64,000 nt of DNA, from assembly GCA_016463515.1 (NCBI GenBank), contig JAEMRF010000002.1, positions 15,081 through 79,080 of the forward strand, read 5' to 3'. Shown in pieces: positions 10,703 to 47,220 of the stretch. Below the pieces are notes generated by a model. That model was not told the origin of the DNA and made no database searches. It worked only from the letters and a program-made list of their open reading frames with translations. This DNA is from Solirubrobacteraceae bacterium (GTDB lineage Bacteria > Actinomycetota > Thermoleophilia > Solirubrobacterales > Solirubrobacteraceae). The translations under genes and the position numbers were made by a program. Within the stretch, counting starts at the first letter, position 1; every line of letters starts with the position of its first letter.

Positions 10703-10780
10703 TCGCACCCAGCCGCGCGGCGGCGCCCTTCCCCTGGAGTCGTTCGCGATCGCGGTTGACCGCGCAGGTATGTTTCAGCC

Positions 10781-15356: not shown

Positions 15357-15435
15357 AGGAAAGCTCCATCTTGTCGTTCCTCATAGGCAGATAGGCGAGT
15401 CTCGCAGACGATAGTCTTGCGCGCTGGCTACCCGA

Positions 15436-17196: not shown

Positions 17197-17197
17197 G

Positions 17198-30408: not shown

Positions 30409-31734
30409 TCAGCCCAGGGATGCGGCCAGTTCGCGGAAGTGGCTGCCGCGTTCCTGAAAGTCGGCGTGACTGTTGAAGCTCGGAGCGGCAGGCGAAAGCA
30501 GGACTACCGTGCCGGGCTCCGCGGCTGCGTGGGCGGCTGCGACGGCGGCCGGAAGGTCTCGCACGTTGGTCGCCTGCCCTCCAGCGGCGCGGACCGCGTC
30601 GGCAAGTCGCTCGCCGGTAACAGGCAACGCGAGTACGCGCGCGCCGGCCGCAGCGATCGCGGTGCCGAGCGCCGTGTAGTCCTGGCCGCGGTCAAATCCG
30701 CCGCCGATCAGGATCACCGGCTGGCCGGCGAACGAGGCGAGTGCGGCCGCAGCGGACTCAGGGGTCGTGGAGATGCTGTCGTCGACCCACTCCACCCCGC
30801 TGGCCAGATGCACGGTCTGCAAGCGGTGCGGCAGTCCGGCGAAATCCGCGAACGCCTGCGGGAACTTTGGCAGCGGAATCTCCAGCGCTTCGAGGGCGGT
30901 CAGCGCCCCGCAGACATTCAGAGCGTTGTGAGCGCCGCGCAGGGGCAACACGCCGCGCGGCAACTCCATCACGCCGTTGCGGGCGACGCTGCCGTCGTCC
31001 AGCACATGCCAGCCCGGTGGCTTTCCGTACGTGTGAACCGGGCCTGGTGCACGGGGCGCGGCCATGACCTCAGGCGAAAGCGCGTTGACCACGCAGCACT
31101 CAACGCCGGGGAGCGCGAGCAGCCGCAGCTTCTCGGCCATGTAAGCATCGTGCGTGAGGTGCCACTGAAGATGCTCGGGATACAGGTTGCTGGCCATCGC
31201 AACCTGCGGCCCACAGGCGAGATCGGCGATCTGGTAACTCGACAGCTCGACGACGGCAAGTTCGTTGTCGTTGCTATCGAACAGCTCCAGCGCGGGGCGC
31301 CCGATGTTGCCGGCTAGCTGCACGGGCCGACCGGTAGCGGCGATTAGGTGGGTGAGGAGTGAGGCTGTCGTGCTCTTGCCCTTGGTCGCGGTCAACCCGA
31401 GGACGTTGCGTCCACGGCGCTCGGCCAGCCATAGTCCGGTTGCGGTGGTGACGATGGTGCCTCGCGCGCGGATCGCCTGAAGCTCGTAGCGGTGCACCGA
31501 AACGCCAGGTGAGCGTACGACCACGTCGCAGTCGGCCGTCGCGGCAACGGCCTCATCGGCGCCGACGACTCGCGCTCCATCGGTCAGCTCGGGCGCGTCC
31601 GCAGCCGCCTCGAGCACCACCACCGTGATCCGCGCCGCGGGCAGGGCACTGCGGAGGATCGTGCCGAATGAGCGGGTCTCTACGCCAGCGCCCCAAACGC
31701 CGACGCGCAGCCCATCAAGCTCGGAGAAACGCAC
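30409..31734 (-). CDS. murD: UDP-N-acetylmuramoyl-L-alanine:glutamate ligase (MurD family).
   Basis: N-terminal GAGVETRSF Rossmann-like region, Mur-ligase P-loop GLTATKGKSTTASLL, and C-terminal GGFDRGQDY. The gene is not in a dcw context. Confidence 0.85.
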   Translation of the reverse strand: MRFSELDGLRVGVWGAGVETRSFGTILRSALPAARITVVVLEAAADAPELTDGARVVGADEAVAATADCDVVVRSPGVSVHRYELQAIRARGTIVTTATGLWLAERRGRNVLGLTATKGKSTTASLLTHLIAATGRPVQLAGNIGRPALELFDSNDNELAVVELSSYQIADLACGPQVAMASNLYPEHLQWHLTHDAYMAEKLRLLALPGVECCVVNALSPEVMAAPRAPGPVHTYGKPPGWHVLDDGSVARNGVMELPRGVLPLRGAHNALNVCGALTALEALEIPLPKFPQAFADFAGLPHRLQTVHLASGVEWVDDSISTTPESAAAALASFAGQPVILIGGGFDRGQDYTALGTAIAAAGARVLALPVTGERLADAVRAAGGQATNVRDLPAAVAAAHAAAEPGTVVLLSPAAPSFNSHADFQERGSHFRELAASLG

Positions 31735-33268
31735 GGAGCCCGTCCCTCAACGCGGTCGGCACGCGCTGGCCGTCGTCGAAAGTGAGGAACTCGTCGATCC
31801 GCGCGCGGCTGCGACCGGCTGGCTCGAGCACCTCGGCCACGAGGCGCCGAACGAGCGGCTGGTCGCGCCAGCCGGGAATGGCATCGAGCATCTCGATTGC
31901 CGCGAGGCTTTCCTCCTCCTCGCCGACACACTCGAAGGGCTTGGCGCCGCCGGTGGCGGTGAGCAGCGCAAAGCCCTCGTATTGCGCCTCGTCCTCCAGG
32001 AGTGCGCCGCCGAAGATCTCGGCCAGGGCGTCCGGCTGCATGAACGGTGCGAGCATCAAGAACACGAACCGGCACTTGGGGCAGTTGCGGCACCACGCTT
32101 CGCCGCCACGCTCGGCTGGGTCGATGTGGAAGTTGCGATTGCAGCTCGTGAAGGCGTGGTGGTATTGGTTCAAGTCGCGCGCGAACGTACGGGCGATCAG
32201 CAGTTCGGACGCTGGCCGCAGGAGCGAGAAAACATCGATATCGGTTAGTGCTTCCGCGGCCGCGGCGCGCAGCAGGTCCTCTGCACGGGCGCTCTTGCTG
32301 AACTGGTGGTTGACGACGATTCCGTCGTGCTGGAGGTTGCCGACCGAAGCGGAACGCTCGTTGGCGAGCGCGACCGCATCAAAGCCATTCAAGCTGGCAG
32401 TGAGCAGCGCGACGCAGGTCACGATCGCCGTGATCGGCACATGCCCGTTGAGCGCGCCGCTCGCGTTTAGGCGGCGGATGTCGTCGAGCGGCAGGCTCCG
32501 GCGGACCTCGAGCAGCGGCAGGCCTGCGACCTGGGCCGTGCGTCTCATCGGATCAAGCGCGTTGACGACGAACAGCGATAGGTCCAGACCGGTCCGGCGT
32601 ACCGTCTCCAGCGCCACGATGGAGTCCTTGCCGCCGCCGACGGGTACGAGCACACGCGTGGCTTCCTGTGGTGGCCGGGCAGCGGGGGCCCGGAGGATCG
32701 GTCCGCGCGCGAACCTCGGTCGCGGCAGATGCACGAGCCGCTCACGGTTCTCGTACGCGAACTCGCCGAGCCCCTCCGAATAGAGCGCCTCGAGCAGGGT
32801 GGCGGCTGCTGGCGGCGGGTCGCCGGTCTCACAGGCAACCTCGGGAGGCGCCGCCATCTTGAAGTAGCTGACGCCTGCGACCCAGTGCAGTAGGTCTAGC
32901 AGCGGTGCGACCGCGTCCTCGTCGGCGACGACGCCCGCGGGCAGGGGGATGTCGAAGGTCTCGGTGAATGCCTCTGCATCGTCGAGCGCGTAGTGCAGGC
33001 TGACGCGTCCTTCTGGGCTCAGCGACCGCGCGACAAAGTGCAGGCGGCGGATCGAGGCAGGGTCAAACGAGGACTTGGGGGAGGTGGTGCCAGCCGACGT
33101 CTGCACGGGGTTCAGGGTATTCGCTTCGGGGGCAGCACCGGTCTCGTATGCGCTCGGCGTTGCCGCCTTATCGCTGGGCTGGCCGCCTAACCACGCCCGT
33201 GCGCCGCGCGTGCCGCCCCTAGTGGAACCTTGCCGCCGGCGACGGCGGTACCGTTCGCGCGCGTGCAC
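31715..33268 (-). CDS. PP-loop (adenine-nucleotide alpha-hydrolase-like) protein with a Cys cluster. It is a possible MurL-type partner of MurD. The start is uncertain.
   Basis: The PP-loop is LVPVGGGKDS. CRNCPKCRF follows later. The gene overlaps the murD start by 20 nt. The N-terminal ~60 codons overlap the divergent dcm start and are probably not translated. Confidence 0.7.
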   Translation of the reverse strand: MHARERYRRRRRQGSTRGGTRGARAWLGGQPSDKAATPSAYETGAAPEANTLNPVQTSAGTTSPKSSFDPASIRRLHFVARSLSPEGRVSLHYALDDAEAFTETFDIPLPAGVVADEDAVAPLLDLLHWVAGVSYFKMAAPPEVACETGDPPPAAATLLEALYSEGLGEFAYENRERLVHLPRPRFARGPILRAPAARPPQEATRVLVPVGGGKDSIVALETVRRTGLDLSLFVVNALDPMRRTAQVAGLPLLEVRRSLPLDDIRRLNASGALNGHVPITAIVTCVALLTASLNGFDAVALANERSASVGNLQHDGIVVNHQFSKSARAEDLLRAAAAEALTDIDVFSLLRPASELLIARTFARDLNQYHHAFTSCNRNFHIDPAERGGEAWCRNCPKCRFVFLMLAPFMQPDALAEIFGGALLEDEAQYEGFALLTATGGAKPFECVGEEEESLAAIEMLDAIPGWRDQPLVRRLVAEVLEPAGRSRARIDEFLTFDDGQRVPTALRDGLRAFLRA

Positions 33269-34336
33269 ACGTATCGGCTAGTAGACCTGTTCGCGGGATG
33301 CGGCGCGATGAGTCGTGGATTCGCGGACAGCGGCCGATTCAAGCCCGTGTTCGCCGTCGAGTTCGAGCCACGAGCGGCCGCCACCTACGCAGCGAACTTC
33401 CCCGCGGCAACTCTCGTTCAGGACCCGATCCAGCAGGTCGAGTCCTTTCCGACGGCGGACGTCGTCATCGGCGGGCCACCGTGTCAGGGCTTCTCCACGC
33501 TCAACCGAGCCGGGGCGAACGTCGCGAGCCGCCGGCTCTGGCAGGAGTACGTCCGCGCGTTGAAGGCGATCCAGCCGGCGGCGTTCGTGATGGAGAACGT
33601 GCCCCAGATTCTCGACAGCGCGGAGTATGCGGCCTTTGTCGCGGCGATCGAGGGAGACGGCTTCTACACGCTTGACGCGCGCGTGCTGAACGTCGCCGAC
33701 TACGGCGTCCCTCAACGCCGCCTAAGGGCCTTCGTCATCGGGATCGACAAGCGCCTTGGCGGGGTCCCGTGGCCGGATCAGACGCACGCCGATCCCGACC
33801 TCAAAGACGAGCGCTACAAGCCGTGGAGGACGTTCAACCAGGCGGTCAAGCACCTGCCCAAGCAGCCCGACGGGCACAAGTGGCACCGTGACCGGAACGT
33901 GTGGCCCGAGAGCCTAGTCCGCTACCGGGCGGTTCCACCGGGCGGGAATCGGTTCGACATGGAACGAGAGCTCGATCGGCAGGGGAAGGGCGACCTTGTC
34001 CCCCCGTGCTGGCGCAAGCACCGGAAGGGGTCGTACGACGTCTTCGGTCGCTTGTGGGGGAATCGGCCAGCGACCACGATTCGTACCGAGTTTCACAAGC
34101 CCGAGAAGGGGCGCTATCTCCACCCGACCGAGGACCGGGCCATCACCGTGCGCGAAGCAGCGTCGCTCATGAGCTTTCCGAGCCATCACAAGCTTCCGGA
34201 AGACCAGCCGATGACGGCCATGGCGCGTCAGATCGGGAACGCCGTTCCACCGCTCATGGCGCGACGACTCGCTGAACCCATCGCGCAGGCGCTGGACGAA
34301 GCAGCTAGCGCGACTGCTCTTGAGCAAGTCGCATAG
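33230..34336 (+). CDS. dcm: DNA (cytosine-5)-methyltransferase.
   Basis: Motif I DLFAGCGAMSRGF, motif IV GGPPCQGFS, ENV, QRR, and C-terminal QIGNAVPP. An alternative GTG start is at 33263. Confidence 0.9.
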   Translation: MPPATAVPFARVHTYRLVDLFAGCGAMSRGFADSGRFKPVFAVEFEPRAAATYAANFPAATLVQDPIQQVESFPTADVVIGGPPCQGFSTLNRAGANVASRRLWQEYVRALKAIQPAAFVMENVPQILDSAEYAAFVAAIEGDGFYTLDARVLNVADYGVPQRRLRAFVIGIDKRLGGVPWPDQTHADPDLKDERYKPWRTFNQAVKHLPKQPDGHKWHRDRNVWPESLVRYRAVPPGGNRFDMERELDRQGKGDLVPPCWRKHRKGSYDVFGRLWGNRPATTIRTEFHKPEKGRYLHPTEDRAITVREAASLMSFPSHHKLPEDQPMTAMARQIGNAVPPLMARRLAEPIAQALDEAASATALEQVA

Positions 34337-34375
34337 TCGGTACCGCGCCGCGTGTGATGGCATGATCGGCATACC

Positions 34376-34816
34376 GTGCCGATCGCGCCGCCCTCCAGTG
34401 ACCACGCCACAGCGACCATGCGCGCCAATCGTGGTCGAGACACCGGACCGGAAGTGGCGCTGCGGTCGGCGTTGCACGCTCGAGGCTTGCGCTTCCGCAA
34501 GAATCATCGACTGGACATCGCCGACGGTCATCGCGTGCGCCCGGATGTTGTCTTTCCGAAGGTGCGGCTGGCGGTTTTCGTCGACGGCTGCTTTTGGCAC
34601 GGCTGCCAGGAGCACCGCTCGTTGCCGCGATCCAACGCGTCGTTCTGGAAGAACAAGATCGAAGGCACCCGTGAGCGAGACCGTCAGCAGATTGCCTGGC
34701 TCGAGGCAGCCGGTTGGACCGTGATCCGGGTCTGGGAGCACGATCTCCCTGAACCCGCTGTCCAGAGGATTGTGGAGCTCGTCGACGCGCTGCGCAATCC
34801 CACGCCGGAGACATGA
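34376..34816 (+). CDS. vsr: Very-short-patch repair endonuclease.
   Basis: RGRDTGPEVALRSALHARGLRFR, RPDVVFPKVRLAVFVDGCFWHGC, NASFWKNKI and IRVWEHD. Confidence 0.9.
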   Translation: MPIAPPSSDHATATMRANRGRDTGPEVALRSALHARGLRFRKNHRLDIADGHRVRPDVVFPKVRLAVFVDGCFWHGCQEHRSLPRSNASFWKNKIEGTRERDRQQIAWLEAAGWTVIRVWEHDLPEPAVQRIVELVDALRNPTPET

Positions 34817-36315
34817 CTCAGCGTTCAGATACAAGCGAGTCGATCCCGACCACCGGCTCGGTCCAGCTCGTGCCGGATCCTCGGTCCCTTGAGGCACTCG
34901 GTCGCAACCACACGCTGGAAGCAGCGCTGGCCGAGCTGGTTGACAACTCAATCGACGCCGGTGCCAAGCACGTCCTGATTCGCTTCGTTCGCGACGGCGA
35001 GCGACTGGTCCGTTTGCTGGTTGTCGACGACGGGTCAGGCATGGCCGACGAGCGAATCGACATCGCCATGACCGTAGGCGGCGCCCGCAGCTACGACGAC
35101 GGCGAGATCGGCCGCTTCGGACTCGGTCTCAAGGCCGCATCGTTCAGCCAGGCACGCAGTGTGACCGTCGTCTCCGCCGCTGCCAACGCAGACGCCGTGG
35201 GGCGGCAGTGGCATCTGACGAAGGCCAAGCAGGACTATCGCTGCGACATCGTCGACCCGGCGTTCGCTCACGCCCTGCTCGCGCATGATTGGGGATTCCC
35301 CGAGTCACCGACCGGGACGCTCGTTCGCTGGGACGACGTCAAGGGCTTTCCGACGGTGGCCAGTCCCACGGCGGTAGAGCGTTTTCTGCAGTCCGCATTC
35401 GCCAAGATCCGCGCCCATCTCGGCCTGATCTTTCACCGCATCCTCACCAGGGGCGACGTGCGTCTCTTGATCGACGTTGAGGACGCCGGGGACATCGTCT
35501 TGCGTACCGAAGTACCGGCGCTCGATCCCTTCGGATACCACCGCACCGGAGCCGCCGGGTGGCCCAAGCGCATCCAGGTCGGTCGCGGCAAGCGCAAGCT
35601 GCTGCTCGACTGCCACATCTGGCCCGGACGCTCCAACGCCGACGAGTTCCGCCTCGACGGCAACCTGATCGAGCGCCAAGGGCTCTACATCTACTACAAC
35701 GACCGTTTGATCCAGCGCGGTGGCTGGAACGGGCTCTGCCACGCCGACAAGCAGCTCAACCTTGCGCGGGTCGCTCTCGACATTGACGGCGATGTGGAGC
35801 AGGTGCTGTCCCTCAAGCCCGAAAAGAACGGCGTGGAAGTCGGCCCGGCCTTTGGGCCATCGATCGTTGCGGCCGCGTCCTCAGACGGCACGACGTTCAA
35901 CGACTATCTCGACCACGCGCGCGGGACCTTCAAGGAAGCCAACAAGCGACGGCGGACTCGACAGCCCGTACTCCCTCCGGGCAAGGGATTTGCCCCGAAG
36001 CTCCGGCGGTCGATCGGCCGAGAGCTGCCACTCAAGAACGAGGATCCCATCGAGGTGCGCTGGAAGCGCCTCCCCGGTGCGGACTTTTTCGACATCGACC
36101 GCGACGAACGGATCCTTTGGCTCAACAAGCGCTACCGCAAGGCCCTGGCCGGTGACCGTCGTGGCGGGCTCAACGATCTGCCGTTGATCAAGGCGCTGTT
36201 GTTTCTCCTGACCGAGAACATCTTTGCCGGCCAGAACATGGGGCCACGCGACAAGGACAACATTGAGGTCTGGCAGGCCATCCTGACGGCCGCCGCGCGC
36301 GAGGAGGCCGAGTGA
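34813..36315 (+). CDS. GHKL (HATPase_c_3/MORC-like) ATPase.
   Basis: Bergerat-fold motifs ELVDNSIDAGA, DDGSGM and GRFGLGLKAASFS. The start overlaps the vsr stop as ATGA. Confidence 0.85.
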   Translation: MTQRSDTSESIPTTGSVQLVPDPRSLEALGRNHTLEAALAELVDNSIDAGAKHVLIRFVRDGERLVRLLVVDDGSGMADERIDIAMTVGGARSYDDGEIGRFGLGLKAASFSQARSVTVVSAAANADAVGRQWHLTKAKQDYRCDIVDPAFAHALLAHDWGFPESPTGTLVRWDDVKGFPTVASPTAVERFLQSAFAKIRAHLGLIFHRILTRGDVRLLIDVEDAGDIVLRTEVPALDPFGYHRTGAAGWPKRIQVGRGKRKLLLDCHIWPGRSNADEFRLDGNLIERQGLYIYYNDRLIQRGGWNGLCHADKQLNLARVALDIDGDVEQVLSLKPEKNGVEVGPAFGPSIVAAASSDGTTFNDYLDHARGTFKEANKRRRTRQPVLPPGKGFAPKLRRSIGRELPLKNEDPIEVRWKRLPGADFFDIDRDERILWLNKRYRKALAGDRRGGLNDLPLIKALLFLLTENIFAGQNMGPRDKDNIEVWQAILTAAAREEAE

Positions 36316-37307
36316 CTAGCCCTGCTCCGGGTCGTCACCTGACGACCGCCGGACTGCAGGAGCATTGGGACGCCGGCGTCCCCGTGGCGATCCCGATCGC
36401 CGGTACACCGACGCTGCGGCTGCGGGTAGACCCGCCACGCAGCCGACTCACGCTCCGTGTGCCGCTCGCGTCCGAAGTCGAGCCACCCGTCAACGCCCTG
36501 GCGCACGTCGCCGTCGAGGTGCGAATCGACGGCAACCAGCGCTTCCTGGAGATCTCGACGACCGACGAACGGCTCGCCGTCGACGGCCACGCCATGCTGA
36601 TGGCCGTCGCCGACCGTATCCAGCTCGACGGCATCGAGCCGGTCGAGGCGTTAGAGCAGACCTTGGCCACCTGGGAGGCCATCCTCGCAAGTCGGGTTCG
36701 GCTTACCGTCCAGGCGGAAGTGGGCCTCGTCGGCGAACTGCTCGTTCTCCGGGCGATGCTCGACACGGCGGCGGCAGGCGCCAGTGCATGGCGCGGTGGG
36801 CTTAGCGAGGAGCACGACTTCGGCTTTGCCGACGTCGACGTTGAGGTGAAGACCACGACCAGTGAGCAACGCAGGCACTGGATCCACGGGCTCGGGCAAC
36901 TCGTACCTACTGGTGATTCACCGCTGTGGTTGCTCTCGGTCCAACTGACCCGTGCCGGTGAAGGCGACGGCCATCGACTCCCTGAGCTCATCGACGACCT
37001 ACGCGTCCGCCTGTCCTGCGCGGACCGGGGGATCTTGGATCAAAGCGTGGCAGCTGCCGGCTGGAGCGACGATCAACGTGATCTGGTGACGGACCGTTGG
37101 CGCCTACGCACCGCTCCCGTCGCCTTTCACGTTGCCGACGACTTCCCGCGCTTGACGCCGGATCTGCTCGCCGCGGTCTCGATTGATGTCGCACCGCTAC
37201 GCCAAGTCACCTACGAGGTCGAACTCACCGGCCAGCCGGCGTCGTTAGATCCGCCGGCAACGGTGGCGACCATCATCAAGGACTTGGGAAAGGGATTCGA
37301 TGACTGA
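36312..37307 (+). CDS. PD-(D/E)XK nuclease-motif protein.
   Basis: EEHDFGFADVDVEVKTTTS is a D...D/E-x-K core. The start overlaps the upstream gene as GTGA. Confidence 0.75.
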   Translation: MTSPAPGRHLTTAGLQEHWDAGVPVAIPIAGTPTLRLRVDPPRSRLTLRVPLASEVEPPVNALAHVAVEVRIDGNQRFLEISTTDERLAVDGHAMLMAVADRIQLDGIEPVEALEQTLATWEAILASRVRLTVQAEVGLVGELLVLRAMLDTAAAGASAWRGGLSEEHDFGFADVDVEVKTTTSEQRRHWIHGLGQLVPTGDSPLWLLSVQLTRAGEGDGHRLPELIDDLRVRLSCADRGILDQSVAAAGWSDDQRDLVTDRWRLRTAPVAFHVADDFPRLTPDLLAAVSIDVAPLRQVTYEVELTGQPASLDPPATVATIIKDLGKGFDD

Positions 37308-40209
37308 CGACGGGCTCTTTGACATCTACGCGGCCGCGCTCGACGCAATGAAGACCGGCGGCCCCTCGGCGCTCGGTCGTCGCGTCCGATTCGAAGCCGA
37401 AGAGCGCGACGCGGAGGCGCTTGCCGAACCTGCAGCGTTGGCCAAGCACCTCGAGCACGCCGCGATCGGGGACCGTCTGTTGGTCAAGCTGCGGCTGGCG
37501 CTAGCCACCTGGGACGCCGACACGCTCGGGCCCTGGACGGACGGCACCGCGCCACGCACCGTAGAACGGCGTCAGCGGATCTACGCGCTCCTCAAGCTCG
37601 ACGACGCATCCGCTGAGGCTTTCGATGCGGCGATGCCGGTGGCCACCGACGACGCCGTGGTCGTGAGCCGCACGTTCAAGCCCTGGTACGGGCGGGTCAT
37701 GGCGGAACGTGACCCGTTCTACTGGTTGCACTACCGCGACTACCTCGCCAAGCGCGGCTGGGACGAGAACGCCATCGCGGCGCTCGACCTCAACACCACC
37801 CGCGTAGTCGAGCGCCTCAGCGATCCGGAACGAGACGAGGCTTATCAGGCCAAGGGCTTGGTCGTTGGTTATGTCCAGAGCGGCAAAACGGCCAACTTCA
37901 CCGGTGTCGTCGCCAAAGCCGTCGACGCTGGCTACAGGCTGGTCATTGTCCTGACGGGCACCACCGACCTGCTGCGCGGACAGACACAGCGGCGGCTCGA
38001 CAAAGAGCTGGCTGGCTACGAGAACCTCATGCGCGGAGTCAACGAGGATGATCACGACGCGCTGCTTACGGTCGACTACGCCGCCGATCCCGACTGGGAT
38101 CAGTTCGTCCGCCACGGTGCGCTCCCGTCCACGCTCGGCGTGACCGACATCTACCGCCTGACCACGCACGCAGGTGACTACAAGAGCCTGAAGCAGGGCA
38201 TCTCGTCGCTGGACTTTGACCGCATCGATCCGGCCCAGCCACTCTATGCGTCGATCAACCTCCATCGCGTGCCGACGCGTATCGCGATCGTCAAGAAGAA
38301 CAAGTCCGTCCTGACCAAGCTGGTCGGCGATCTGAACAGGATTACGGCCAAGCTTGCTGACATTCCGGCTCTGATCATTGACGACGAGTCCGATCAGGCC
38401 TCGATCAACACCTCCGACCCGAAGAAGGTCGAGCAGGGGCGCGCCAAGCGCACGGCGATCAACGCCCTCATCTCACAACTGCTCGAGTCGCTTCCGCGTG
38501 GCCAGTACGTCGGCTACACGGCGACGCCGTTCGCCAACGTGTTCGTCGACCCCAGCGACGCGGTCGACGTGTTCCCGCGCGACTTCATCCTCGCGCTGGA
38601 CCGTGCACCTGGCTACATGGGCGCGACCGACTTCCACGATCTGGAACCGCTCCCGGAAGACGAAGTCGCGACGGTCGCCAACTCAAACGAAGCAGCGTTT
38701 GTGCGGCCCGTAACGGACGAGACTGCCGAAGGCGCCCTTCAAGAGGCAATCGACATGTTCGTGCTCACCGGGGCGATCAAGCTCTATCGAGAGCAGGTGA
38801 CCGGTGACGCCGGTCGGTTCAAGCATCACACGATGCTCGTCCATGAGTCGGTCAAGCAGGCAGATCACCGCGATCTTGCCGATGCGATCCGAGACATGTG
38901 GCGCACCGCCGGCTACTACGGGGCGGGCGGGTTGAGGCGGCTCGAGGCGCTCTTCGAGGATGACGTCCGTTTGGTCATGGACGAGCGAGCTGATGGCGAA
39001 CCGATTCCCGATTCCTTTGCCGACATCAAACCGTTCGTCGGCGAGGTCGTCACCCGTATCGAGGGAGCTGCCAACGATCCGGTCTTGGTCGTCAACGGGG
39101 ACGCGGATGCCGCGAAGGAGGACGTGGACTTTGATAGGCGGTCGCTTTGGCGCGTCCTCGTTGGAGGCGCGAAGCTGTCGCGCGGTTTCACGGTTGAAGG
39201 TCTGACCGTCTCGTACTACCGTCGAGTCACCAAGCAAGCCGACACGTTGATGCAGATGGGCCGGTGGTTTGGCTTCCGTGCTGGCTATAAGGATCTGGTT
39301 CGGCTCTATATCCGGCGCGGGACCGCATTCGATCTCTACGACGCCTTCGAAGCCGCCTGCCGATCCGAGGAGCTGTTCCGGACCGAGATGCAGCGCTACG
39401 CCAAAGTCGAAGAGGGCGTTCCAGCGATTACGCCAGCAGAGGTACCGCCGCTCGTCGCTCAGCACCTTGGATGGCTCAAACCGGCCGCCTCTAACAAGAT
39501 GTACAACGCCCGGCTCGTCGAGCGGCGCTCGCCCGGCGAGCGCCTGGAGCCGGTGGGCTATCCGAAGGCGGCGGATGCCATCAAGACCAACACCGAGACG
39601 CTTCTGCCACTTCTGAAACTCGCATCGAACAAGGGCACGTTTACGTTTCCGACCAAGACGGGGACCGGCACCTTCCCGGGCCCTTGGGGGACGATCGACC
39701 ATCCGAGTTTCGTGACGATGTTGAAGGCACTCCGGTGGCTGCCAGATGATCACTTCCGGCCTGACCTCACCTGGCTCGACGGCCTGACCGAGGAGCAGAT
39801 CGCTGACTGGGTCGTCATCTTGCCCCAACACTCGGGTAAGGGACCACGCGCGACCATCGTCGACTACGGGCCGCTCAGTGTCTTTCGCCGTAAGCGGCGC
39901 CGCGACCCGTTGTTCGGCGCGATCAGCGACCCTAAGCACCGCTGGGCGTCCGACCGCATTGCCGGTGTTGGCACGCATGCCGATCCGCTGGCCGATCAGC
40001 TGCACCAGGAGCGCCGCGGAGCGCTGCTCGTCTATCCGATGGTTGAACAGGAAGATGATGACGACATTCCGGCCGAGCTCAGGGCCGCGGATGTCATCGT
40101 TGCTCTCGTCTTCGTCGCTCCGGAGTCGACAGGGTCGCCTGACAAGCGGCTGGTCCAGTTCGTCGTCAAGGACGTCAACAAGAAGGACGAGCCGATCGTG
40201 GACGCGTGA
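37300..40209 (+). CDS. Z1-domain protein (P-loop, helicase-like N-terminal half).
   Basis: GYVQSGKTANFTG (Walker A), ALIIDDESDQAS (DExx box) and GGAKLSRGFTVEGL. This matches the architecture I know for the Z1 family. It overlaps the upstream gene by 8 nt. Confidence 0.85.
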   Translation: MTDDGLFDIYAAALDAMKTGGPSALGRRVRFEAEERDAEALAEPAALAKHLEHAAIGDRLLVKLRLALATWDADTLGPWTDGTAPRTVERRQRIYALLKLDDASAEAFDAAMPVATDDAVVVSRTFKPWYGRVMAERDPFYWLHYRDYLAKRGWDENAIAALDLNTTRVVERLSDPERDEAYQAKGLVVGYVQSGKTANFTGVVAKAVDAGYRLVIVLTGTTDLLRGQTQRRLDKELAGYENLMRGVNEDDHDALLTVDYAADPDWDQFVRHGALPSTLGVTDIYRLTTHAGDYKSLKQGISSLDFDRIDPAQPLYASINLHRVPTRIAIVKKNKSVLTKLVGDLNRITAKLADIPALIIDDESDQASINTSDPKKVEQGRAKRTAINALISQLLESLPRGQYVGYTATPFANVFVDPSDAVDVFPRDFILALDRAPGYMGATDFHDLEPLPEDEVATVANSNEAAFVRPVTDETAEGALQEAIDMFVLTGAIKLYREQVTGDAGRFKHHTMLVHESVKQADHRDLADAIRDMWRTAGYYGAGGLRRLEALFEDDVRLVMDERADGEPIPDSFADIKPFVGEVVTRIEGAANDPVLVVNGDADAAKEDVDFDRRSLWRVLVGGAKLSRGFTVEGLTVSYYRRVTKQADTLMQMGRWFGFRAGYKDLVRLYIRRGTAFDLYDAFEAACRSEELFRTEMQRYAKVEEGVPAITPAEVPPLVAQHLGWLKPAASNKMYNARLVERRSPGERLEPVGYPKAADAIKTNTETLLPLLKLASNKGTFTFPTKTGTGTFPGPWGTIDHPSFVTMLKALRWLPDDHFRPDLTWLDGLTEEQIADWVVILPQHSGKGPRATIVDYGPLSVFRRKRRRDPLFGAISDPKHRWASDRIAGVGTHADPLADQLHQERRGALLVYPMVEQEDDDDIPAELRAADVIVALVFVAPESTGSPDKRLVQFVVKDVNKKDEPIVDA

Positions 40210-40213
40210 GCGG

Positions 40214-40852
40214 ATGATTCCGGCCGTCGACCTCTCACCCCGGATTCCTGAGCCGCTGCCGGACACGAAAATGCCCCACTCGGATGAGATCAGCGAGGAG
40301 GGGTTCGGCGGGTTCCGCAGCACATGGTTCTTGGGCTGCGTGCCCGTCGACGAAGCCGCCGAGGTTCTCGCCGAAGAGGCACGACTCATCGCTTGGCTCG
40401 ACAATCTCGCTCGGACTGACGAGGAGTTCGAGGATTTGGCGACCACGATCGAAGGTGGGGAGATCGCTGATCTTCCCGACGCGCTCGAGGCACGCGCGAC
40501 AACCGCCGGGCTTGCCTCTCTCATCACCGACCCGGACGACATCCCGCCGCTTGGTGGCTTGGAGATCGGCGTCGCAGGTCTGGCGCACGCCCTGTCGGCT
40601 GTCGGATGTCTGACAGCGGCCAGCTGCCGATCTCACATATCTGATCGCAGCTGGGCGGACTGCCCGGTCGTCTTCTTTGCCGCACCCCCGTCGCGGCTGA
40701 AGGTCCTCGCCGAGATGATCCACGACGCTGGATGCGGGCTGAGCACCGGCCGGAACCTGCTGACGATTGTCGCGCCGTCCATCCGCGAGACGCACAGGCT
40801 TGGTGAGTTGATCGTTCGGGAGCGTCAGCGGTTCCTGCAACTGGCCACGTGA
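40214..40852 (+). CDS. Acidic hypothetical protein (212 aa).
   Basis: The ATG is 5 nt after the Z1 stop. I recognised no motif. Confidence 0.6.
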   Translation: MIPAVDLSPRIPEPLPDTKMPHSDEISEEGFGGFRSTWFLGCVPVDEAAEVLAEEARLIAWLDNLARTDEEFEDLATTIEGGEIADLPDALEARATTAGLASLITDPDDIPPLGGLEIGVAGLAHALSAVGCLTAASCRSHISDRSWADCPVVFFAAPPSRLKVLAEMIHDAGCGLSTGRNLLTIVAPSIRETHRLGELIVRERQRFLQLAT

Positions 40853-40862
40853 ACCGCGAGCG

Positions 40863-42251
40863 GTGCCGGAGGGCCGACGTTGCTGGGCCCCGCGCCGACC
40901 AGGGGCGCGGCCGGCGCCGGCGAACACCACCGCGATGACCTCGAACGCCCACCCGGTCAACCTGCTTGGAATGGGCCAGGTGCTGCGCGACAGTCGCCCC
41001 AAGGACTCGGCTCCGGATCACATCGGGGGCTACGCGAACCTCTACGCCGCGCTGCACTCGCCCGGCCACAAGCACGTGCCGTTCGAGGCCGGCATCAACC
41101 CCATCGCCACCTGCAAGGCTCCGGATGGGGCGCGAGTACCCGCAATCCTCGTCGCATCGAGCCCGCACAAACTCGGCCTGGCAGAGAACCCGTGGCAGGA
41201 CATCTGGGACGTCGACAACGGATGGGTTCGCTACTACGGCGACAACCGCACGCCGGGGGCTGATCCCGCCGCGAAGCCCGGGAACCGTGCGCTCATCACG
41301 GCACACTCGCTACATGCACACCACGACCCTGGCGACCGTACGCGAGCGACGCCGCTGATTCTCTTCCGACGCGTCCCACGAGAGGGGCGCGCCAAGGGCT
41401 TCGCCCAGTTTGAGGGGCTAGGCATCGTCACCGGCGTCGAGTTGGTCACGCAGTACTCGAGCAAGGCCGGGGGCACATTCGCCAACTACGCCTTCGAGTT
41501 GCTCGTGCTGACGCTCGCTTCAGAGCATGAACAGCTGGACTATCGATGGATCACCGATCGCAGGGACGCGGCCAAGCCGCTGGGGTCGACTCTGCGGTAC
41601 GCGCCAAAGGCCTGGAAGGAGTGGGTGGACTCGGGCGCCGTTGCGCTGGACCGCGTGCGACGACGCGTTTCCAAGCTGTTGGTCGAGCCCAAGGACCAGC
41701 AGATGCCCGCGGCAGGAACCCGCGAGGCCACCGTGCTCACTGCGGTCTATGACTACTACGACGGCAAGAAGCACCGTTTCGAGGCGCTCGCGCAGCGAGT
41801 CGCCGAGCGCGCTATCTCCCCGGCCGCGGGCAGTTACGTCCCCGGAGGGCTTACTCGCGGGAGCGGTGATGGGGGCATTGACTTCATTGCGCGCCTCGAT
41901 GTCGGCACCGGGTTCGGTCGCGCGAAGCTGATCGTGCTCGGCCAGGCCAAGTGCGAGAAACCGGGCAACCCGACCCACGGGAACCACATCGCTCGCACTG
42001 TCGCGAGGTTGCGGCGGGGTTGGCTCGGTGTCTACGTCACGACCAGCTACTTCAGCGCGCAGACGCAGCGTGAGGTGATCGAGGACCGCTATCCGATCGT
42101 GCTCGTCTGCGGACGTCGCCTGGCCGAGGAGGTCGGCCGCATGCTCATTGAGCGCGGTGACGACGATGTCACCGCGTTGCTCGACGAGATTGATGCCCAA
42201 TATTCGGCGCCGGTTGCCCCACGAGATCCCGAAGAGTTGCTGTTCCGCTGA
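40863..42251 (+). CDS. Mrr-type restriction endonuclease with an N-terminal SRA/YDG-like domain (predicted reader of modified cytosine). The start is uncertain (ATGs at 40935 and 40971).
   Basis: C-terminal GSGDGGIDFIARL...LIVLGQAKCEK forms the Mrr catalytic core. The N-terminal AGINPI..VPAILVASSP..DNGWVRYYGDNR..GNRAL..PLILFRRV..FEGLGIV follows the SRA pattern. Confidence 0.75.
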   Translation: MPEGRRCWAPRRPGARPAPANTTAMTSNAHPVNLLGMGQVLRDSRPKDSAPDHIGGYANLYAALHSPGHKHVPFEAGINPIATCKAPDGARVPAILVASSPHKLGLAENPWQDIWDVDNGWVRYYGDNRTPGADPAAKPGNRALITAHSLHAHHDPGDRTRATPLILFRRVPREGRAKGFAQFEGLGIVTGVELVTQYSSKAGGTFANYAFELLVLTLASEHEQLDYRWITDRRDAAKPLGSTLRYAPKAWKEWVDSGAVALDRVRRRVSKLLVEPKDQQMPAAGTREATVLTAVYDYYDGKKHRFEALAQRVAERAISPAAGSYVPGGLTRGSGDGGIDFIARLDVGTGFGRAKLIVLGQAKCEKPGNPTHGNHIARTVARLRRGWLGVYVTTSYFSAQTQREVIEDRYPIVLVCGRRLAEEVGRMLIERGDDDVTALLDEIDAQYSAPVAPRDPEELLFR

Positions 42252-42326
42252 CTGGGTGTAGCGCTCAGGTTGTTCTTGCGGTGGTTCGTCCGCCCGCTCG
42301 TGAACACGTTGATCTACCCCTGAACC

Positions 42327-42719
42327 GTGGAGTCAGGTTGCGGCATGGAGCTACGGCTCTCCGGTGATCCGGCGCTCAGCGCGGTCTGCTGGCTTGGAGT
42401 GCTGGATGGGGATGGCACGGTTCAGGACCGGGCTAGCACCGGCGGGCCCAGGATGACTTGGGTCGGGTCTGCCGAGTCCATGGCGCAGTGTGCGGCGTTC
42501 TGGGTATCCGTGCTCAGGCGCCCTGTCCCCACCTACCTCCTCAACCGCAAGGCCAGCCCGCTCTGGGCCGTCACGCTCAGCCACTGCAGTGCGCAACATG
42601 CCGCCGACGTTCTGCTTGCCAGCGCCGAGTACTCGCTGCCGCCGAAGCGACGGAAGCTGACTGCGATTGCGGCCCACCGCAGTGCGAGAGTGTCCGCGCG
42701 TCTTGGGGAGGAGAGATGA
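42327..42719 (+). pseudogene. 5'-truncated paralogue of the LAGLIDADG-like protein at 56220-57323. Only the second LAGLIDADG-type half remains.
   Basis: CWLGVLDGDGT...MAQCAAFWVSVLRRPVPTY...LWAVTLSHCSAQHAADVLLA aligns with CWLGLLDGDGS...MAQCAAYWSPILGRPVPSY...LWAVMLSHRSAQQAASVLLA. Only 75 nt separate it from the upstream gene. Confidence 0.6.
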
Positions 42720-43256
42720 GCCTTGCCGCCACGTTCGGAGGCCCGGTCTCGCTGACGCCGGTCCTTGAGGCTCTGCACCAACTCGTCGGCGACGTCCTGC
42801 GGGTGTCGGTGGCTCCGTGGGGTGACAGGAGCAGGAACCGGTCCTCCGGCACGCTGAGGAGCGTCGAGGTGGAGGAAAACGATGGTCAGGCTCCTGCTGC
42901 AGTGGTGGCGGTTGCGTCCTGCAGTCATGTACATGACTCCGGCTTCCGGTTGAGGGCAGGCGATCTGGGAACGCCCGTCGCATCGGACACTTCGCATCCG
43001 CGACCATGATGGCTGGACGGTAGATCTGGGCCGGGTGGGAACGGCTACGTCCGTCATGGATGACCTCATGCGGCCGGTTGGCGAGGCCGTGACCGACGAC
43101 GATCCTCGCCAGCGATTCACGTCGCCGGCCGGCATCCGAGAGGGTTTGCTCGTACTGCACATGTTCGAGACGGACGACGAGGCGAGAGATCGGATGGCAG
43201 CCCTCCTCGCATGCCTCAGTGAATACGGGCCAGCGCCTAGGCTTAGTGACGCCTGA
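42716..43256 (+). pseudogene. Frameshifted paralogue of 55687-56223.
   Basis: Two ORFs in different frames (42716-43009 and 43035-43256) together align with the intact 178-aa protein (FGGPVSLTPVLEALHQLV/FGGPGLDARALIAALQEFV; DPRQRF/DPVQRH; FETDDEARDRMAALL/SETEADDALRSRLVAL). Confidence 0.55.
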
Positions 43257-43273
43257 ACAGTTAGGGTTGCCGC

Positions 43274-44725: not shown

Positions 44726-44890
44726 GGTCGTGCTCGCACCGGTCTCCGCCCGGGCGAAGCCATTGGCTCGGAGGCGTGGATCGGAGGCAGGTCAGAGGAC
44801 AGCCAGCGGTCGGCGACTCCCAAAGCTGCGCTCGCCACGTCGCCCAATGATGTTGCTCGGGCGATCTTCGCCATTGTAGAGTGCGGCTCC

Positions 44891-46234: not shown

Positions 46235-46394
46235 CTTTGCTGCACCCCAATCTGAGCGCAACGGGAAGAGTGATGTTGCATTCCTGAAACGGGTAGACCG
46301 GCTAAACCGTCGACGGCGCCGTCCGTGACTCAGCCGTCGCCAGCCGTCTCGTTCGAACCTGGCTTCATCTGGTGGGCGTGGATAGGGTGCGAGT

Positions 46395-47219: not shown

Positions 47220-47220
47220 C

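What the first reader, a model, noticed from the sequence alone, without database searches (positions are those of the whole stretch)
33230..42251. Seven-gene, tightly overlapped dcm-vsr-GHKL ATPase-PD-(D/E)XK-Z1-unknown-SRA/Mrr cluster
All seven genes are co-directional, and the junctions are:
- a 39-nt gap
- ATGA (34813)
- GTGA (36312)
- an 8-nt overlap (37300)
- a 4-nt gap (40214)
- a 10-nt gap

The cluster therefore looks like one operon.

A C5-cytosine methyltransferase and its Vsr mismatch endonuclease are joined to three further components. These are a MORC-like GHKL ATPase (DNSIDAG, DDGSGM, GLGLK), a PD-(D/E)XK protein (DVDVEVK), and a 969-aa Z1-domain P-loop/DExx protein.

To my knowledge Z1-domain genes next to Dcm/Vsr have been flagged in comparative surveys of defence islands, usually with an AIPR-type last gene. 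I cannot say from memory whether the mechanism has been resolved or whether it carries a formal system name.

Here the terminal position is instead occupied by an unknown acidic 212-aa protein and an SRA-like/Mrr nuclease, that is, a variant effector module. This is the strongest candidate in the window for a multi-component, methylation-linked restriction/defence machine.
Basis: partly seen in the sequence, partly recalled or inferred. Interest (0 to 1): 0.75.

Follow-up and report, generated by a model that had tools for sequence, protein, structure and literature searches.

The report
Mobile cassette stacking two cytosine-methylation restriction systems
A 9-kb mobile cassette joins an already-predicted but untested ATP-driven restriction-modification operon to an ordinary stand-alone enzyme that cuts methylated DNA, with one small protein of unknown fold between them; it is three modules side by side, not one new seven-part machine.

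Summary
The seven co-directional ORFs, their junctions and the domain calls are real. One correction: gene 7 most likely starts at ATG 40935, which leaves an 82-nt gap, not 10 nt.

The cluster splits into three modules.

- **Module A (33230-40213), Dcm-Vsr-GHKL-DUF4420-Z1.** It is colinear in close relatives. It matches the third type of MORC operon of Iyer et al. 2008 and is a distant, sub-threshold relative of MzaB/C/D. It has no sigma-like MzaA and no AIPR MzaE. Its Z1 protein carries the motifs of the DEAD-Z1 motor studied in CglI.
- **Module B (40214-40852), ORF6.** It belongs to a conserved acidic family of stand-alone proteins, with a confident model and no known fold relative. It is absent from the 79 other Z1 loci from genomes and is degraded in the closest genome.
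- **Module C (40874-42251), a full-length MspJI homologue (E 6e-99) with its own conserved leader.** MspJI-family genes usually sit beside Dcm and Vsr, and almost never beside Z1.

The block is shared with Svornostia abyssi J379 with sharp edges and unrelated flanks, so it is mobile.

Verdict: a composite of known kinds. The "variant effector" reading is not supported. Interest is moderate to low, and ORF6 is the only truly unknown part.

The parts
33263..34336 (+). C5-cytosine DNA methyltransferase (Dcm). The ORF opens at TTG 33230; the likely start is GTG 33263.
   Evidence: PF00145 6e-59 and TIGR00675 163 bits against a cutoff of 100.65. Motifs FAGCG, PPCQGFS, ENV, QRR and GNAVPP can be read in the translation. 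It is 69-74% identical to the Dcm of the colinear loci L087-L089.
34376..34816 (+). Vsr very-short-patch (T:G mismatch) endonuclease.
   Evidence: PF03852 1.4e-20. TIGR00632 124 bits against a cutoff of 97.85. ATGA overlap with the next gene.
34813..36315 (+). GHKL (MutL/MORC-like) ATPase, a distant MzaB relative.
   Evidence: HATPase_c_3 6.6e-22. NCBIfam MzaB 2e-38, but 132 bits against a cutoff of 850. PDB best matches are MutL-NTD 7e-5 and MORC2 1e-3. N45, D72xGxG and G100..GxGLK107 are at least 90% conserved in 76 homologues.
36312..37307 (+). DUF4420 PD-(D/E)XK protein, the presumed nuclease subunit.
   Evidence: PF14390 2.4e-38. MzaD 5.8e-21, 75 bits against a cutoff of 420. E142, D169 and E178-V-K180 are at least 90% conserved in 29 homologues, which is the E-D-ExK motif of Iyer 2008.
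37300..40209 (+). 969-aa SF2 helicase-like protein with a DEAD-Z1 motor, an N-terminal helical extension and a C-terminal domain.
   Evidence: PF10593 1.8e-53. PADLOC MzaC 9e-68 and 'Helicase_II' 6e-37. Invariant in A1: GKT195-197, DDESD361-365, TAT407-409, H515/H523 and DTLMQMGRWFG648-658, which gives the QxxR spacing of motif VI. The confidently modelled C-terminal domain gives a Foldseek hit to the H.CglI C-domain 6f1s (prob 0.96, E 0.077).
40214..40852 (+). ORF6: acidic 212-aa protein of an unannotated stand-alone family.
   Evidence: 118 homologue clusters, with the conserved 'MIP' start confirming ATG 40214. 638 clusters at 50% identity, all about 200-250 aa. Invariant AASCRxH..W..P motif. 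AF2 pLDDT 88.8, pTM 0.88. No fold match in PDB or BFVD. No Pfam, PADLOC, NCBIfam or PHROG hit.
40874..40934 (+). Conserved leader of the MspJI-like gene. It contains the hairpin CCGCGCC-N7-GGCGCGG.
   Evidence: DNA homology to J379 resumes at 40874 and to L172 at 40893, whatever gene lies upstream.
40935..42251 (+). MspJI-family 5mC/5hmC-dependent (Type IV/IIM) restriction endonuclease, 438 aa.
   Evidence: PDB MspJI 4f0p E 5.9e-99 over residues 9-436; AspBHI 3e-24; LpnPI 2e-5. PADLOC mREase_II 6.9e-152. D316 and Q337-A-K339 are invariant, with the MspJI spacing.
42252..42278 (+). Terminator-like hairpin with a T-rich tail, immediately after the stop codon at the cassette edge.
   Evidence: This is weak evidence: the number of such sites equals the chance expectation. 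Homology with J379 ends at 42251/42252.

Best explanation
The region is a horizontally mobile composite of three modules that all concern cytosine-5 methylation.

**Module A (Dcm-Vsr-GHKL-DUF4420-Z1)** is an ATP-dependent restriction-modification system.
- Dcm marks a host-specific site.
- Vsr repairs the T:G mismatches that 5mC deamination creates at that site.
- On DNA that lacks the mark, the DEAD-Z1 helicase-like protein uses ATP to move along the duplex, as H.CglI does.
- That movement licenses cleavage by the separately encoded PD-(D/E)XK protein (DUF4420).
- The MutL/MORC-like GHKL ATPase acts as an ATP-gated clamp or looping and assembly factor.

**Module C** is an autonomous MspJI-type enzyme. 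It cuts DNA carrying 5mC or 5hmC in sequence contexts other than the host's own Dcm site. Together with module A, the cassette would therefore attack both unmethylated and wrongly methylated invaders.

**Module B (ORF6)** is a dispensable accessory protein of unknown activity.

**What is shown:** gene content, motif integrity, modular boundaries, co-conservation of module A, independence of modules B and C, and mobility.

**What is inferred:** all activities, the R-M logic of module A, the division of labour among GHKL, DUF4420 and Z1, and the compatibility of the Dcm site with the MspJI-like enzyme.
For: **Module A is a unit.**
- All five genes are colinear at 53-79% identity in L087-L089.
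- GHKL+Z1 are adjacent in about 75 of 80 genome loci, nearly always with Dcm and/or Vsr within a few kb.
- The genes overlap by 4, 4 and 8 nt.
- The content matches the third type of MORC operon of Iyer 2008, including the helicase motif DThhQXuRhFG (PMC2292703; window residues 648-658) and the E-D-ExK protein.

**Motor analogy.** The Walker A, DExx, QxxR motif VI and H/H-spaced histidines defined for the H.CglI DEAD-Z1 motor are invariant here (PMC5861437). PADLOC's REBASE-type 'Helicase_II' model hits at 6e-37. The C-terminal domain resembles the otherwise unique H.CglI C-domain fold. Like this cassette, CglI and NgoAVII combine a C5-MTase, a separate nuclease and a DEAD-Z1 ATPase (PMC4267653).

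**The nuclease partner is swappable around a constant GHKL-Z1 pair.** Partners seen are DUF4420, NaeI (10 loci), NgoMIV (3 loci) and HNH.

**Module C is independent.** See, and Zheng 2010, who found that about half of MspJI homologues sit next to a 5mC MTase.

**ORF6 is dispensable.** Only a remnant survives in J379. It is absent from L088, L089 and the 79 other genome loci. Elsewhere it occurs in unrelated settings.

**Mobility.** Homology to J379 runs exactly over 33230-40276 and 40874-42252, with no similarity between J379's 10-kb flanks and the window. GC content dips to 0.63-0.66. The window flanks are housekeeping-type genes.
Against: - No activity was measured for any gene.
- The experimentally validated relative, Mza, works without a methyltransferase and with an AIPR effector. 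The GHKL-DUF4420-Z1 core therefore need not use methylation to tell self from non-self.
- In many Streptomyces loci the same core sits beside a complete Type II R-M system (NaeI or NgoMIV plus Dcm and Vsr). There, Dcm and Vsr may belong to that system and not to the Z1 core.
- DUF4420 has no recognised DNA-recognition domain, so what reads the target site is unknown.
- The Z1 model as a whole is poor (pLDDT 62), and the 6f1s hit is not significant by E-value (0.077).
- The whole 9-kb block, MspJI-like gene included, moved or was inherited together in two genomes. An ORF6 remnant in J379 shows the Z1-ORF6-MspJI order is ancestral to both. Some functional coupling therefore cannot be excluded.
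- Whether the host Dcm site escapes the MspJI-like enzyme is untested.
Confidence: 0.6

Rival explanations
1. One seven-gene machine. The GHKL-DUF4420-Z1 complex senses or processes DNA, and the SRA/Mrr nuclease, with ORF6, is its terminal effector in place of AIPR.
For: - All seven genes are co-directional with short gaps.
- The Z1-ORF6-MspJI order is shared with J379, where an ORF6 remnant survives.
- The gene after Z1 is variable and often a nuclease: NaeI, NgoMIV or HNH.
- One further MspJI-like gene lies in the same island as a Z1 operon (L170) and another lies next to one (L165).
Against: - MspJI enzymes are complete and active on their own (PMC2938202, PMC3479186).
- DUF4420 already supplies a conserved nuclease motif.
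- Co-occurrence is 1 in 80 for MspJI-like loci and 1 in 79 for Z1 loci. In L165 and L170 the two genes are on opposite strands.
- Gene 7 has its own leader and an 82-nt gap.
- In J379 it survives intact 6 kb away from a frameshifted Z1 gene.
- Its closest homologues lack a Z1 neighbour.
Confidence: 0.1
2. The functional trio is Dcm-Vsr-MspJI, as at the MspJI type locus in Mycobacterium sp. JLS (Mjls0824, 0823 and 0822, with a neighbouring 'putative helicase', Mjls0821). On this view GHKL-DUF4420-Z1-ORF6 is an inserted or helicase-type partner of that trio.
For: - Zheng 2010 describes exactly the set M + V + MspJI + helicase, and notes that about half of the family lies next to a 5mC MTase.
- In this survey 33 of 80 MspJI-like loci have a Dcm and 20 of 80 a Vsr.
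- L172 has a Vsr directly upstream of the 86% homologue.
Against: - The window's Dcm and Vsr are 69-77% identical to those of Z1 operons that have no MspJI gene (L087-L089). They are only 25-48% identical to the Dcm and Vsr found next to MspJI-like genes. They therefore came with the Z1 block.
- The domain content of Mjls0821 could not be checked here.
Confidence: 0.12
3. ORF6 is an immunity or regulatory protein. It lets a 5mC writer and a 5mC-dependent nuclease, or another toxic neighbour, coexist, for example as an acidic inhibitor of Type IV enzymes.
For: - The family is acidic (median pI 4.7).
- It is stand-alone and occurs on integrative elements and in defence islets, often near a Dcm (L001-L005) and once divergent from a GmrSD_N gene with PadR-Dcm-Vsr (L003/L004).
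- In the window it sits exactly between the Dcm operon and the 5mC-dependent nuclease.
Against: - J379 keeps intact Dcm and MspJI-like genes but has lost ORF6.
- L087 has ORF6 with no Type IV gene within 9 kb.
- No fold or family link to known inhibitors was found.
- An invariant C-R-x-H motif suggests an enzyme as much as a mimic.
- No copy was found in IMG/VR.
Confidence: 0.1

Closest known systems
MORC/paraMORC restriction-modification operons, third type (Iyer, Abhiman & Aravind 2008, PMC2292703); later the putative Z1+DUF4420+Dcm system of Miller et al. 2022 (PMC9523054)
   Same: It has a GHKL ATPase, an SF2 helicase with the C-terminal DThhQXuRhFG motif, an RE-fold E-D-ExK protein, a cytosine methylase and a Vsr. 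All five are present and ordered as an operon.
   Different: - That family is only predicted, never tested.
- Miller's Type I adds DUF6339, a 704-aa MORC-like protein and a 310-aa protein. These occur in the Streptomyces loci here but not in the window.
- Miller's Type II adds AIPR, which is also absent.
MZA anti-phage system (mzaABCDE; cited as Gao et al. 2020 by PMC9523054; PADLOC and NCBIfam models)
   Same: The GHKL, Z1 and PD-(D/E)XK proteins are homologous to MzaB, MzaC and MzaD.
   Different: - Scores lie far below the equivalog cutoffs: 132 against 850, 278 against 1500 and 75 against 420 bits.
- There is no sigma-like MzaA and no AIPR MzaE.
- This cassette has Dcm and Vsr, which are not among the five mza genes as described.
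CglI / NgoAVII ATP-dependent restriction enzymes (M + R + H; PMC4267653, PMC5737866, PMC5861437)
   Same: A C5-methyltransferase is combined with a separate nuclease subunit and a DEAD-Z1 helicase-like ATPase. The motor-specific motifs are conserved, and the C-terminal domain is possibly homologous.
   Different: - The nuclease here is a PD-(D/E)XK DUF4420 protein, not a PLD+B3 R-protein.
- There are an extra GHKL ATPase and a Vsr.
- The Z1 protein is about 340 aa longer, with an N-terminal helical domain.
MspJI family of modification-dependent endonucleases (MspJI, AspBHI, LpnPI; PMC2938202, PMC3479186, PMC3946040)
   Same: Gene 7 aligns end to end with MspJI. It has the SRA-like N-domain and the D...QAK Mrr-type catalytic motif. 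It lies in a neighbourhood with Dcm and Vsr, as at the type locus.
   Different: Its sequence-context specificity is unknown. Here it is separated from Dcm and Vsr by four other genes.

Membership tests
MZA (mzaABCDE) | MzaB, MzaC and MzaD reach the NCBIfam equivalog cutoffs | tested here: not met
   132 against 850, 278 against 1500 and 75 against 420 bits. They are homologous but distant.
MZA (mzaABCDE) | Sigma-like MzaA and AIPR MzaE are present | tested here: not met
   None of the seven genes hits Sigma70_r4, RNA_pol_A_CTD or AIPR. MzaA-like genes do occur in L069, L075 and L083.
Iyer 2008 third-type MORC/paraMORC R-M operon | SF2 helicase with a C-terminal DThhQXuRhFG motif | tested here: met
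   DTLMQMGRWFG at residues 648-658, invariant in 22 homologues (definition).
Iyer 2008 third-type MORC/paraMORC R-M operon | Adjacent RE-fold protein with an E-D-ExK motif | tested here: met
   E142, D169 and E178-x-K180 are at least 90% conserved. PF14390 2.4e-38.
Iyer 2008 third-type MORC/paraMORC R-M operon | GHKL ATPase with intact ATP-binding motifs (plus an S5 domain) | tested here: met
   The N-box, G1 and G2 boxes are conserved. HATPase_c_3 6.6e-22. The S5 domain itself was not tested.
Miller 2022 putative system, Type I | Core of Z1+DUF4420+Dcm, plus DUF6339, a 704-aa MORC-like protein and a 310-aa protein | tested here: not met
   The core is present, but the three extra genes are absent from the window. 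They are present in Streptomyces loci.
CglI/NgoAVII-type ATP-dependent REase | DEAD-Z1 motor: Walker A/B, QxxR motif VI and H/H motif | tested here: met
   GKT195-197, DDE361-363, Q652xxR655 and H515/H523 (8 residues apart, as H282/H290 in H.CglI) are invariant (PMC5861437). This is sequence-level evidence only.
CglI/NgoAVII-type ATP-dependent REase | R subunit with a PLD nuclease domain and a B3-like DNA-binding domain | tested here: not met
   No PLD or B3 hit in any gene. The candidate nuclease is PD-(D/E)XK.
CglI/NgoAVII-type ATP-dependent REase | H-subunit C-terminal DNA-binding domain fold | tested here: inconclusive
   Foldseek match to 6f1s: prob 0.96, TM(target) 0.53, E 0.077. The model region 740-955 is confident, but the whole model has pLDDT 62. 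No sequence hit.
MspJI family (Type IV/IIM) | SRA-like N-terminal domain plus a C-terminal Mrr-type D...(Q/E)xK domain, full-length similarity | tested here: met
   4f0p E 5.9e-99 over residues 9-436. PF18062 and PF04471. D316 and Q337-A-K339 are invariant.
MspJI family (Type IV/IIM) | Cleaves only 5mC/5hmC DNA, at a fixed distance from the modified base | not testable with these tools
   Needs enzyme assays.
Dcm/Vsr pair | C5-MTase motifs I, IV (PCQ), VI (ENV), VIII (QRR) and X (GNAVP); Vsr above its family cutoff | tested here: met
   The motifs can be read in the translation. TIGR00675 163 bits against 100.65 and TIGR00632 124 bits against 97.85.

The most novel reading that the evidence does not exclude
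The cassette is a functionally coupled two-arm system. ORF6, a protein with no known fold relative, would insulate or switch between a methylation-protected ATP-dependent restriction complex (GHKL-DUF4420-Z1) and a methylation-dependent nuclease (MspJI-like). For example, it could inhibit the Type IV enzyme on the host's own Dcm marks. That would explain the long-noted puzzle of why MspJI-family genes so often sit beside 5mC methyltransferases.
Probability: 0.08. Interest if true: 0.7.

Novelty: new member of a known kind. Interest (0 to 1): 0.35.

Why it matters
The Dcm-Vsr-GHKL-DUF4420-Z1 operon type is widespread. More than 7,200 Z1 homologues were found at E ≤ 1e-10, and 595 genome stretches matched in one scan. 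It has been predicted to be a restriction system since 2008, yet it has no tested mechanism, no formal name, and only sub-threshold hits in defence-finder models.

This compact, intact copy has sharp edges and would be a convenient construct for testing three things:
- whether a DEAD-Z1 motor, a MutL/MORC-like ATPase and a PD-(D/E)XK protein form a new class of ATP-dependent R-M enzyme;
- how a 5mC writer coexists with a 5mC-dependent nuclease;
- what the 638-cluster ORF6 family does.

As a finding about this window it is mostly a clean example of modular stacking of defence genes, not a new principle.

Tried and rejected
1. **One co-conserved seven-gene operon: rejected.** Surveys of 80 Z1 loci and 80 MspJI-like loci show that ORF6 and gene 7 are not co-conserved with the core.
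2. **An Mza system: rejected.** MzaA and MzaE are absent and all scores are below cutoff.
3. **AIPR hidden nearby: not found.** There is no AIPR hit in the cassette or in the flank ORFs that were scanned, and it is not among the frequent families downstream of Z1.
4. **Function of ORF6: led nowhere.** Pfam, PADLOC, NCBIfam and PHROGs gave nothing. Foldseek against PDB and BFVD gave nothing below E 0.02. A profile search of 1.84 billion representatives found only same-length, single-domain relatives with no fusions. A scan of IMG/VR found none.
5. **Structure of the Z1 protein: weak.** AF2 with 22 sequences gave pLDDT 62, with only the N- and C-terminal domains confident. PDB sequence and profile searches were empty.
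6. **Flanking repeats, att sites or an integrase at the cassette edges: none convincing**.
7. **Promoter and terminator scans: uninformative.** No promoters were found and terminator counts were at chance level.
8. **Literature.** One search was swamped by journal codes. Gao 2020 could not be read, so the statements about Mza rest on Miller 2022's description and on the PADLOC and NCBIfam model names.
9. **Identity of Mjls0821.** The 'putative helicase' next to MspJI could not be checked with the tools and caps available.

Full report
**1. Observation**

HMM searches confirm every domain call.

| Gene | Coordinates | Assignment and evidence |
|---|---|---|
| 1 | 33230/33263-34336 | Dcm, PF00145 6e-59 |
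| 2 | 34376-34816 | Vsr; TIGR00632 124 bits, above its cutoff of 97.85 |
| 3 | 34813-36315 | GHKL ATPase, HATPase_c_3 7e-22 |
| 4 | 36312-37307 | DUF4420 PD-(D/E)XK, 2e-38 |
| 5 | 37300-40209 | Z1 protein, 2e-53 |
| 6 | 40214-40852 | no family; pI 4.49 |
| 7 | 40863/40935-42251 | RE_AspBHI_N 6e-28 plus Mrr_cat |

Two starts need correcting.
- Gene 7 almost certainly begins at ATG 40935. Every profile match starts near residue 35 of the long form. The orthologue in Svornostia abyssi J379 starts at the equivalent ATG. DNA similarity to two other loci begins only at 40874 and 40893. The last gap is therefore 82 nt, not 10 nt.
- Gene 1 probably begins at GTG 33263.

**2. Source and mobility**

The window is about 68% GC. 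The cassette dips to 0.63-0.66.

The best genome match is Svornostia abyssi J379 (Solirubrobacterales), with a Z1 protein 98% identical. A blastn comparison of the whole 64-kb window against that locus with its 10-kb flanks aligns only two stretches:
- 33230-40276, at 94% identity;
- 40874-42252, at 96% identity.

The left edge falls exactly at the TTG at 33230. The right edge falls at the stop codon of gene 7. The flanks are unrelated. In the window they are housekeeping-type genes: a Mur-ligase-like gene, prephenate dehydratase and a Vgb-lyase-like propeller. None has a PADLOC hit.

No integrase, att-like repeat or terminal inverted repeat was found. The 9-kb block is a discrete, horizontally moved cassette. 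How it moves is unknown.

**3. Module A: Dcm-Vsr-GHKL-DUF4420-Z1**

*Cohesion.* Three metagenome contigs whose Z1 proteins are 75-79% identical carry the same five genes in the same order, at 53-77% identity for the other four. One continues into an ORF6 homologue, one into an integrase and TrwC, and one into nothing related.

In 80 species-level genome loci, mostly Streptomyces and other actinobacteria at 41-65% Z1 identity:
- GHKL directly precedes Z1 in nearly all;
- DUF4420 lies between them in about half;
- Dcm (often two copies) and Vsr are usually present but often downstream.

*Literature match.* This content is what Iyer, Abhiman and Aravind (2008) called the third type of MORC operon. 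They defined it as an SF2 helicase with a C-terminal DThhQXuRhFG motif plus an RE-fold E-D-ExK protein, commonly with cytosine methylases and Vsr (PMC2292703). The window protein reads DTLMQMGRWFG at residues 648-658, invariant in 22 homologues. DUF4420 keeps E142, D169 and E178-x-K180 in at least 90% of 29 homologues.

Miller et al. 2022 rediscovered a Z1+DUF4420+Dcm core (PMC9523054).
- Their Type I adds DUF6339, a 704-aa MORC-like protein and a 310-aa protein. I see these as a convergent trio in the Streptomyces loci, but not in the window.
- Their Type II adds AIPR, which is also absent.

PADLOC and NCBIfam recognise the GHKL, Z1 and DUF4420 proteins only as distant relatives of MzaB, MzaC and MzaD: 132 against 850, 278 against 1500 and 75 against 420 bits. 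The sigma-like MzaA and the AIPR MzaE are missing.

*Likely mechanism.* The Z1 domain has been studied biochemically in the H subunit of CglI.
- DEAD and Z1 together form a monomeric SF2-type motor.
- Its ATP-driven movement along dsDNA activates the separately encoded nuclease.
- It has an unusual Walker A, a QxxR motif VI and an H/H motif (PMC5861437).

All of these are invariant here: GKT195-197, DDE361-363, Q652xxR655, and H515/H523 at the same 8-residue spacing. PADLOC's REBASE-derived 'Helicase_II' model hits at 6e-37.

The AlphaFold model of the whole protein is poor (pLDDT 62). Its C-terminal domain is confident, and the only specific Foldseek hit is the otherwise unique C-terminal DNA-binding domain of H.CglI (6f1s, prob 0.96, E 0.077). 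That is suggestive, not conclusive.

By analogy, I infer the following roles:
- Dcm provides the self mark.
- DUF4420 is the nuclease.
- The Z1 protein is the translocating motor.
- The MutL/MORC-like ATPase (motifs conserved; PDB neighbours MutL and MORC2) is an ATP-gated clamp or assembly factor, as Iyer et al. proposed.
- Vsr repairs deamination damage at the Dcm site.

None of this was tested. The Mza relatives work without a methylase, so the R-M logic is an inference.

*Variable partners.* The gene after Z1 varies across the 78 loci. Among 112 non-Dcm, non-Vsr downstream genes, the commonest families were:
- DUF6339 (14);
- NaeI (10);
- NgoMIV (3);
- assorted helicases;
- Sigma70_r4 (3);
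- HNH (2).

Neither AIPR nor AspBHI_N appeared among the 25 most frequent families. The GHKL-Z1 pair is the constant element, and its nuclease partners are swappable.

**4. Module C: the SRA/Mrr gene**

Gene 7 aligns end to end with MspJI (PDB 4f0p, E 5.9e-99). It aligns more weakly with AspBHI and LpnPI. It keeps D316 and Q337-A-K339 with the MspJI spacing.

MspJI enzymes are autonomous homotetramers that cut 5mC or 5hmC DNA at a fixed distance from the modified base (PMC2938202, PMC3479186). Zheng et al. 2010 already reported that the type enzyme lies in a set of M.MspJIP, V.MspJIP (a Vsr), MspJI and a 'putative helicase'. They also found that about half of the family neighbours a 5mC methyltransferase, which they called puzzling.

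My survey of 80 metagenome loci agrees:

| Neighbour of the MspJI-like gene | Loci out of 80 |
|---|---|
| Dcm | 33 |
| Vsr | 20 |
| Z1 | 1 |
| DUF4420 | 1 |
| GHKL | 0 |
| ORF6 | 0 |

Many of these contigs are short, so the counts are lower bounds.

The nearest non-orthologous relatives sit in three different settings:
- at 86% identity, directly after a Vsr (L172);
- at 77%, alone near a Dcm/SacI-like/Vsr set (L171);
- at 73%, convergent to a GHKL-DUF4420-Z1 operon 5 kb away, with TIR and HEPN genes in between (L170).

The window's Dcm and Vsr resemble those of MspJI-free Z1 operons (69-77%). They resemble those beside MspJI-like genes much less (25-48%). They therefore belong to module A.

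In J379 the gene remains intact, with its 60-nt leader, even though 6 kb including an IS110 transposase separates it from Z1. The J379 Z1 gene itself carries a +1 frameshift.

Gene 7 is an independent Type IV module appended to the cassette.

**5. Module B: ORF6**

*What it is.*
- The start at 40214 is confirmed by a conserved 'MIP' N-terminus.
- The family has 118 clusters at 90% identity and 638 at 50%. All members are 200-250 aa and single-domain.
- It is acidic, with a median pI of 4.7.
- It has an invariant AASCRxH...W...P motif.
- AlphaFold gives pLDDT 88.8 and pTM 0.88.
- No PDB or BFVD structure matches it (best E 0.078 and 0.024), and no profile library recognises it.

*Where it occurs.*
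- It follows Z1 in the window, in L087 and on one further contig, inferred from matching contig lengths.
- It is absent from L088, L089 and the 79 other genome loci.
- It is reduced to a start-less remnant in J379.
- Elsewhere it is a free-standing gene on integrative elements or in defence islets, often near a Dcm. Once it lies next to a GmrSD_N gene, and once after a HATPase_c_3/receiver-like pair.
- It was not found in IMG/VR.

Its function is open. An inhibitor or regulator role is possible, but its loss in J379 weakens that idea.

**6. Verdict**

This is a methylation-centred defence cassette, and its five-gene core is a real, uncharacterised system of a kind predicted since 2008. The terminal genes are not a variant effector of it. 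The cassette stacks two things:
- an R-M-type arm aimed, by inference, at unmarked DNA;
- a Type IV arm aimed at foreign 5mC or 5hmC.

A dispensable protein of unknown fold lies between them.

Novelty: a new member of known kinds in a particular combination. Interest is about 0.35. The value lies in providing a compact, intact test construct and in the unexplained ORF6 family.

Noticed in passing
L007 (Svornostia abyssi J379, NZ_CP088295.1) 10001-20351: The J379 copy of the cassette looks decayed. Its Z1 gene has a +1 G at L007 12018, which causes a frameshift. ORF6 is reduced to a roughly 60-nt remnant with no start codon. A 6-kb insert at 12973-18973 carries an IS110-family transposase (15621-16820) and a 125-nt piece 80% similar to the Mrr-catalytic part of gene 7 (14460-14583).
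   Followed up: partly
L015-L066 (Streptomyces Z1 loci), e.g. L044 17575-19701, L066 16854-17849, L015 18276-19247: A convergent three-gene module lies downstream of many Z1 operons: DUF6339, an unannotated protein of about 330 aa, and an HTH_3 protein of about 700 aa. It corresponds to the extra genes of Miller 2022 Type I. A second recurrent module, made of a 490-aa protein, an SNF2 helicase and a 235-aa protein, replaces it in about 10 loci.
   Followed up: partly
L029, L041, L043, L050, L062, L063, L081, L085 and others, directly after Z1: A bona fide NaeI (PF09126, down to 4e-129) or NgoMIV restriction endonuclease gene directly follows the Z1 gene in 13 of 78 loci, with Vsr and Dcm alongside. 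The GHKL-Z1 pair is therefore often attached to a complete GCCGGC-type Type II R-M system.
   Followed up: partly
window 42300-46250: Immediately downstream of the cassette the AT skew drops to between -0.11 and -0.16 and the GC3 contrast is weak. ORF 43274-44725 (+, 483 aa) is Cys-rich, has a signal-peptide-like N-terminus and has no family hit. ORF 44891-46231 is a Vgb_lyase-like beta-propeller.
   Followed up: partly
window 30412-33268 (- strand): An unannotated 517-aa ORF contains a PP-loop-like VPVGGGKDS motif. It overlaps the start of a Mur-ligase-like gene and diverges from the cassette. Its annotated N-terminus overlaps the cassette edge and is probably not coding.
   Followed up: no
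window 46395-48045 and 49004-50593: Two adjacent 274-aa ORFs have no Pfam or PADLOC hit. A 530-aa ORF on the - strand has a weak PADLOC PDC-S29 hit (8.5e-12). These may be further defence-related genes a few kb from the cassette.
   Followed up: no
L001 6642-10690: Here the ORF6 homologue is the third gene after a 727-aa HATPase_c_3 protein and a 381-aa receiver-like protein. This set diverges from a distant Dcm-GHKL-Z1-DUF4420 operon, so ORF6 may have an alternative partnership.
   Followed up: no
window 40896-40917: The conserved leader of gene 7 contains a perfect 7-bp hairpin, CCGCGCC-N7-GGCGCGG. It is partly conserved in J379 and may be a regulatory element.
   Followed up: no
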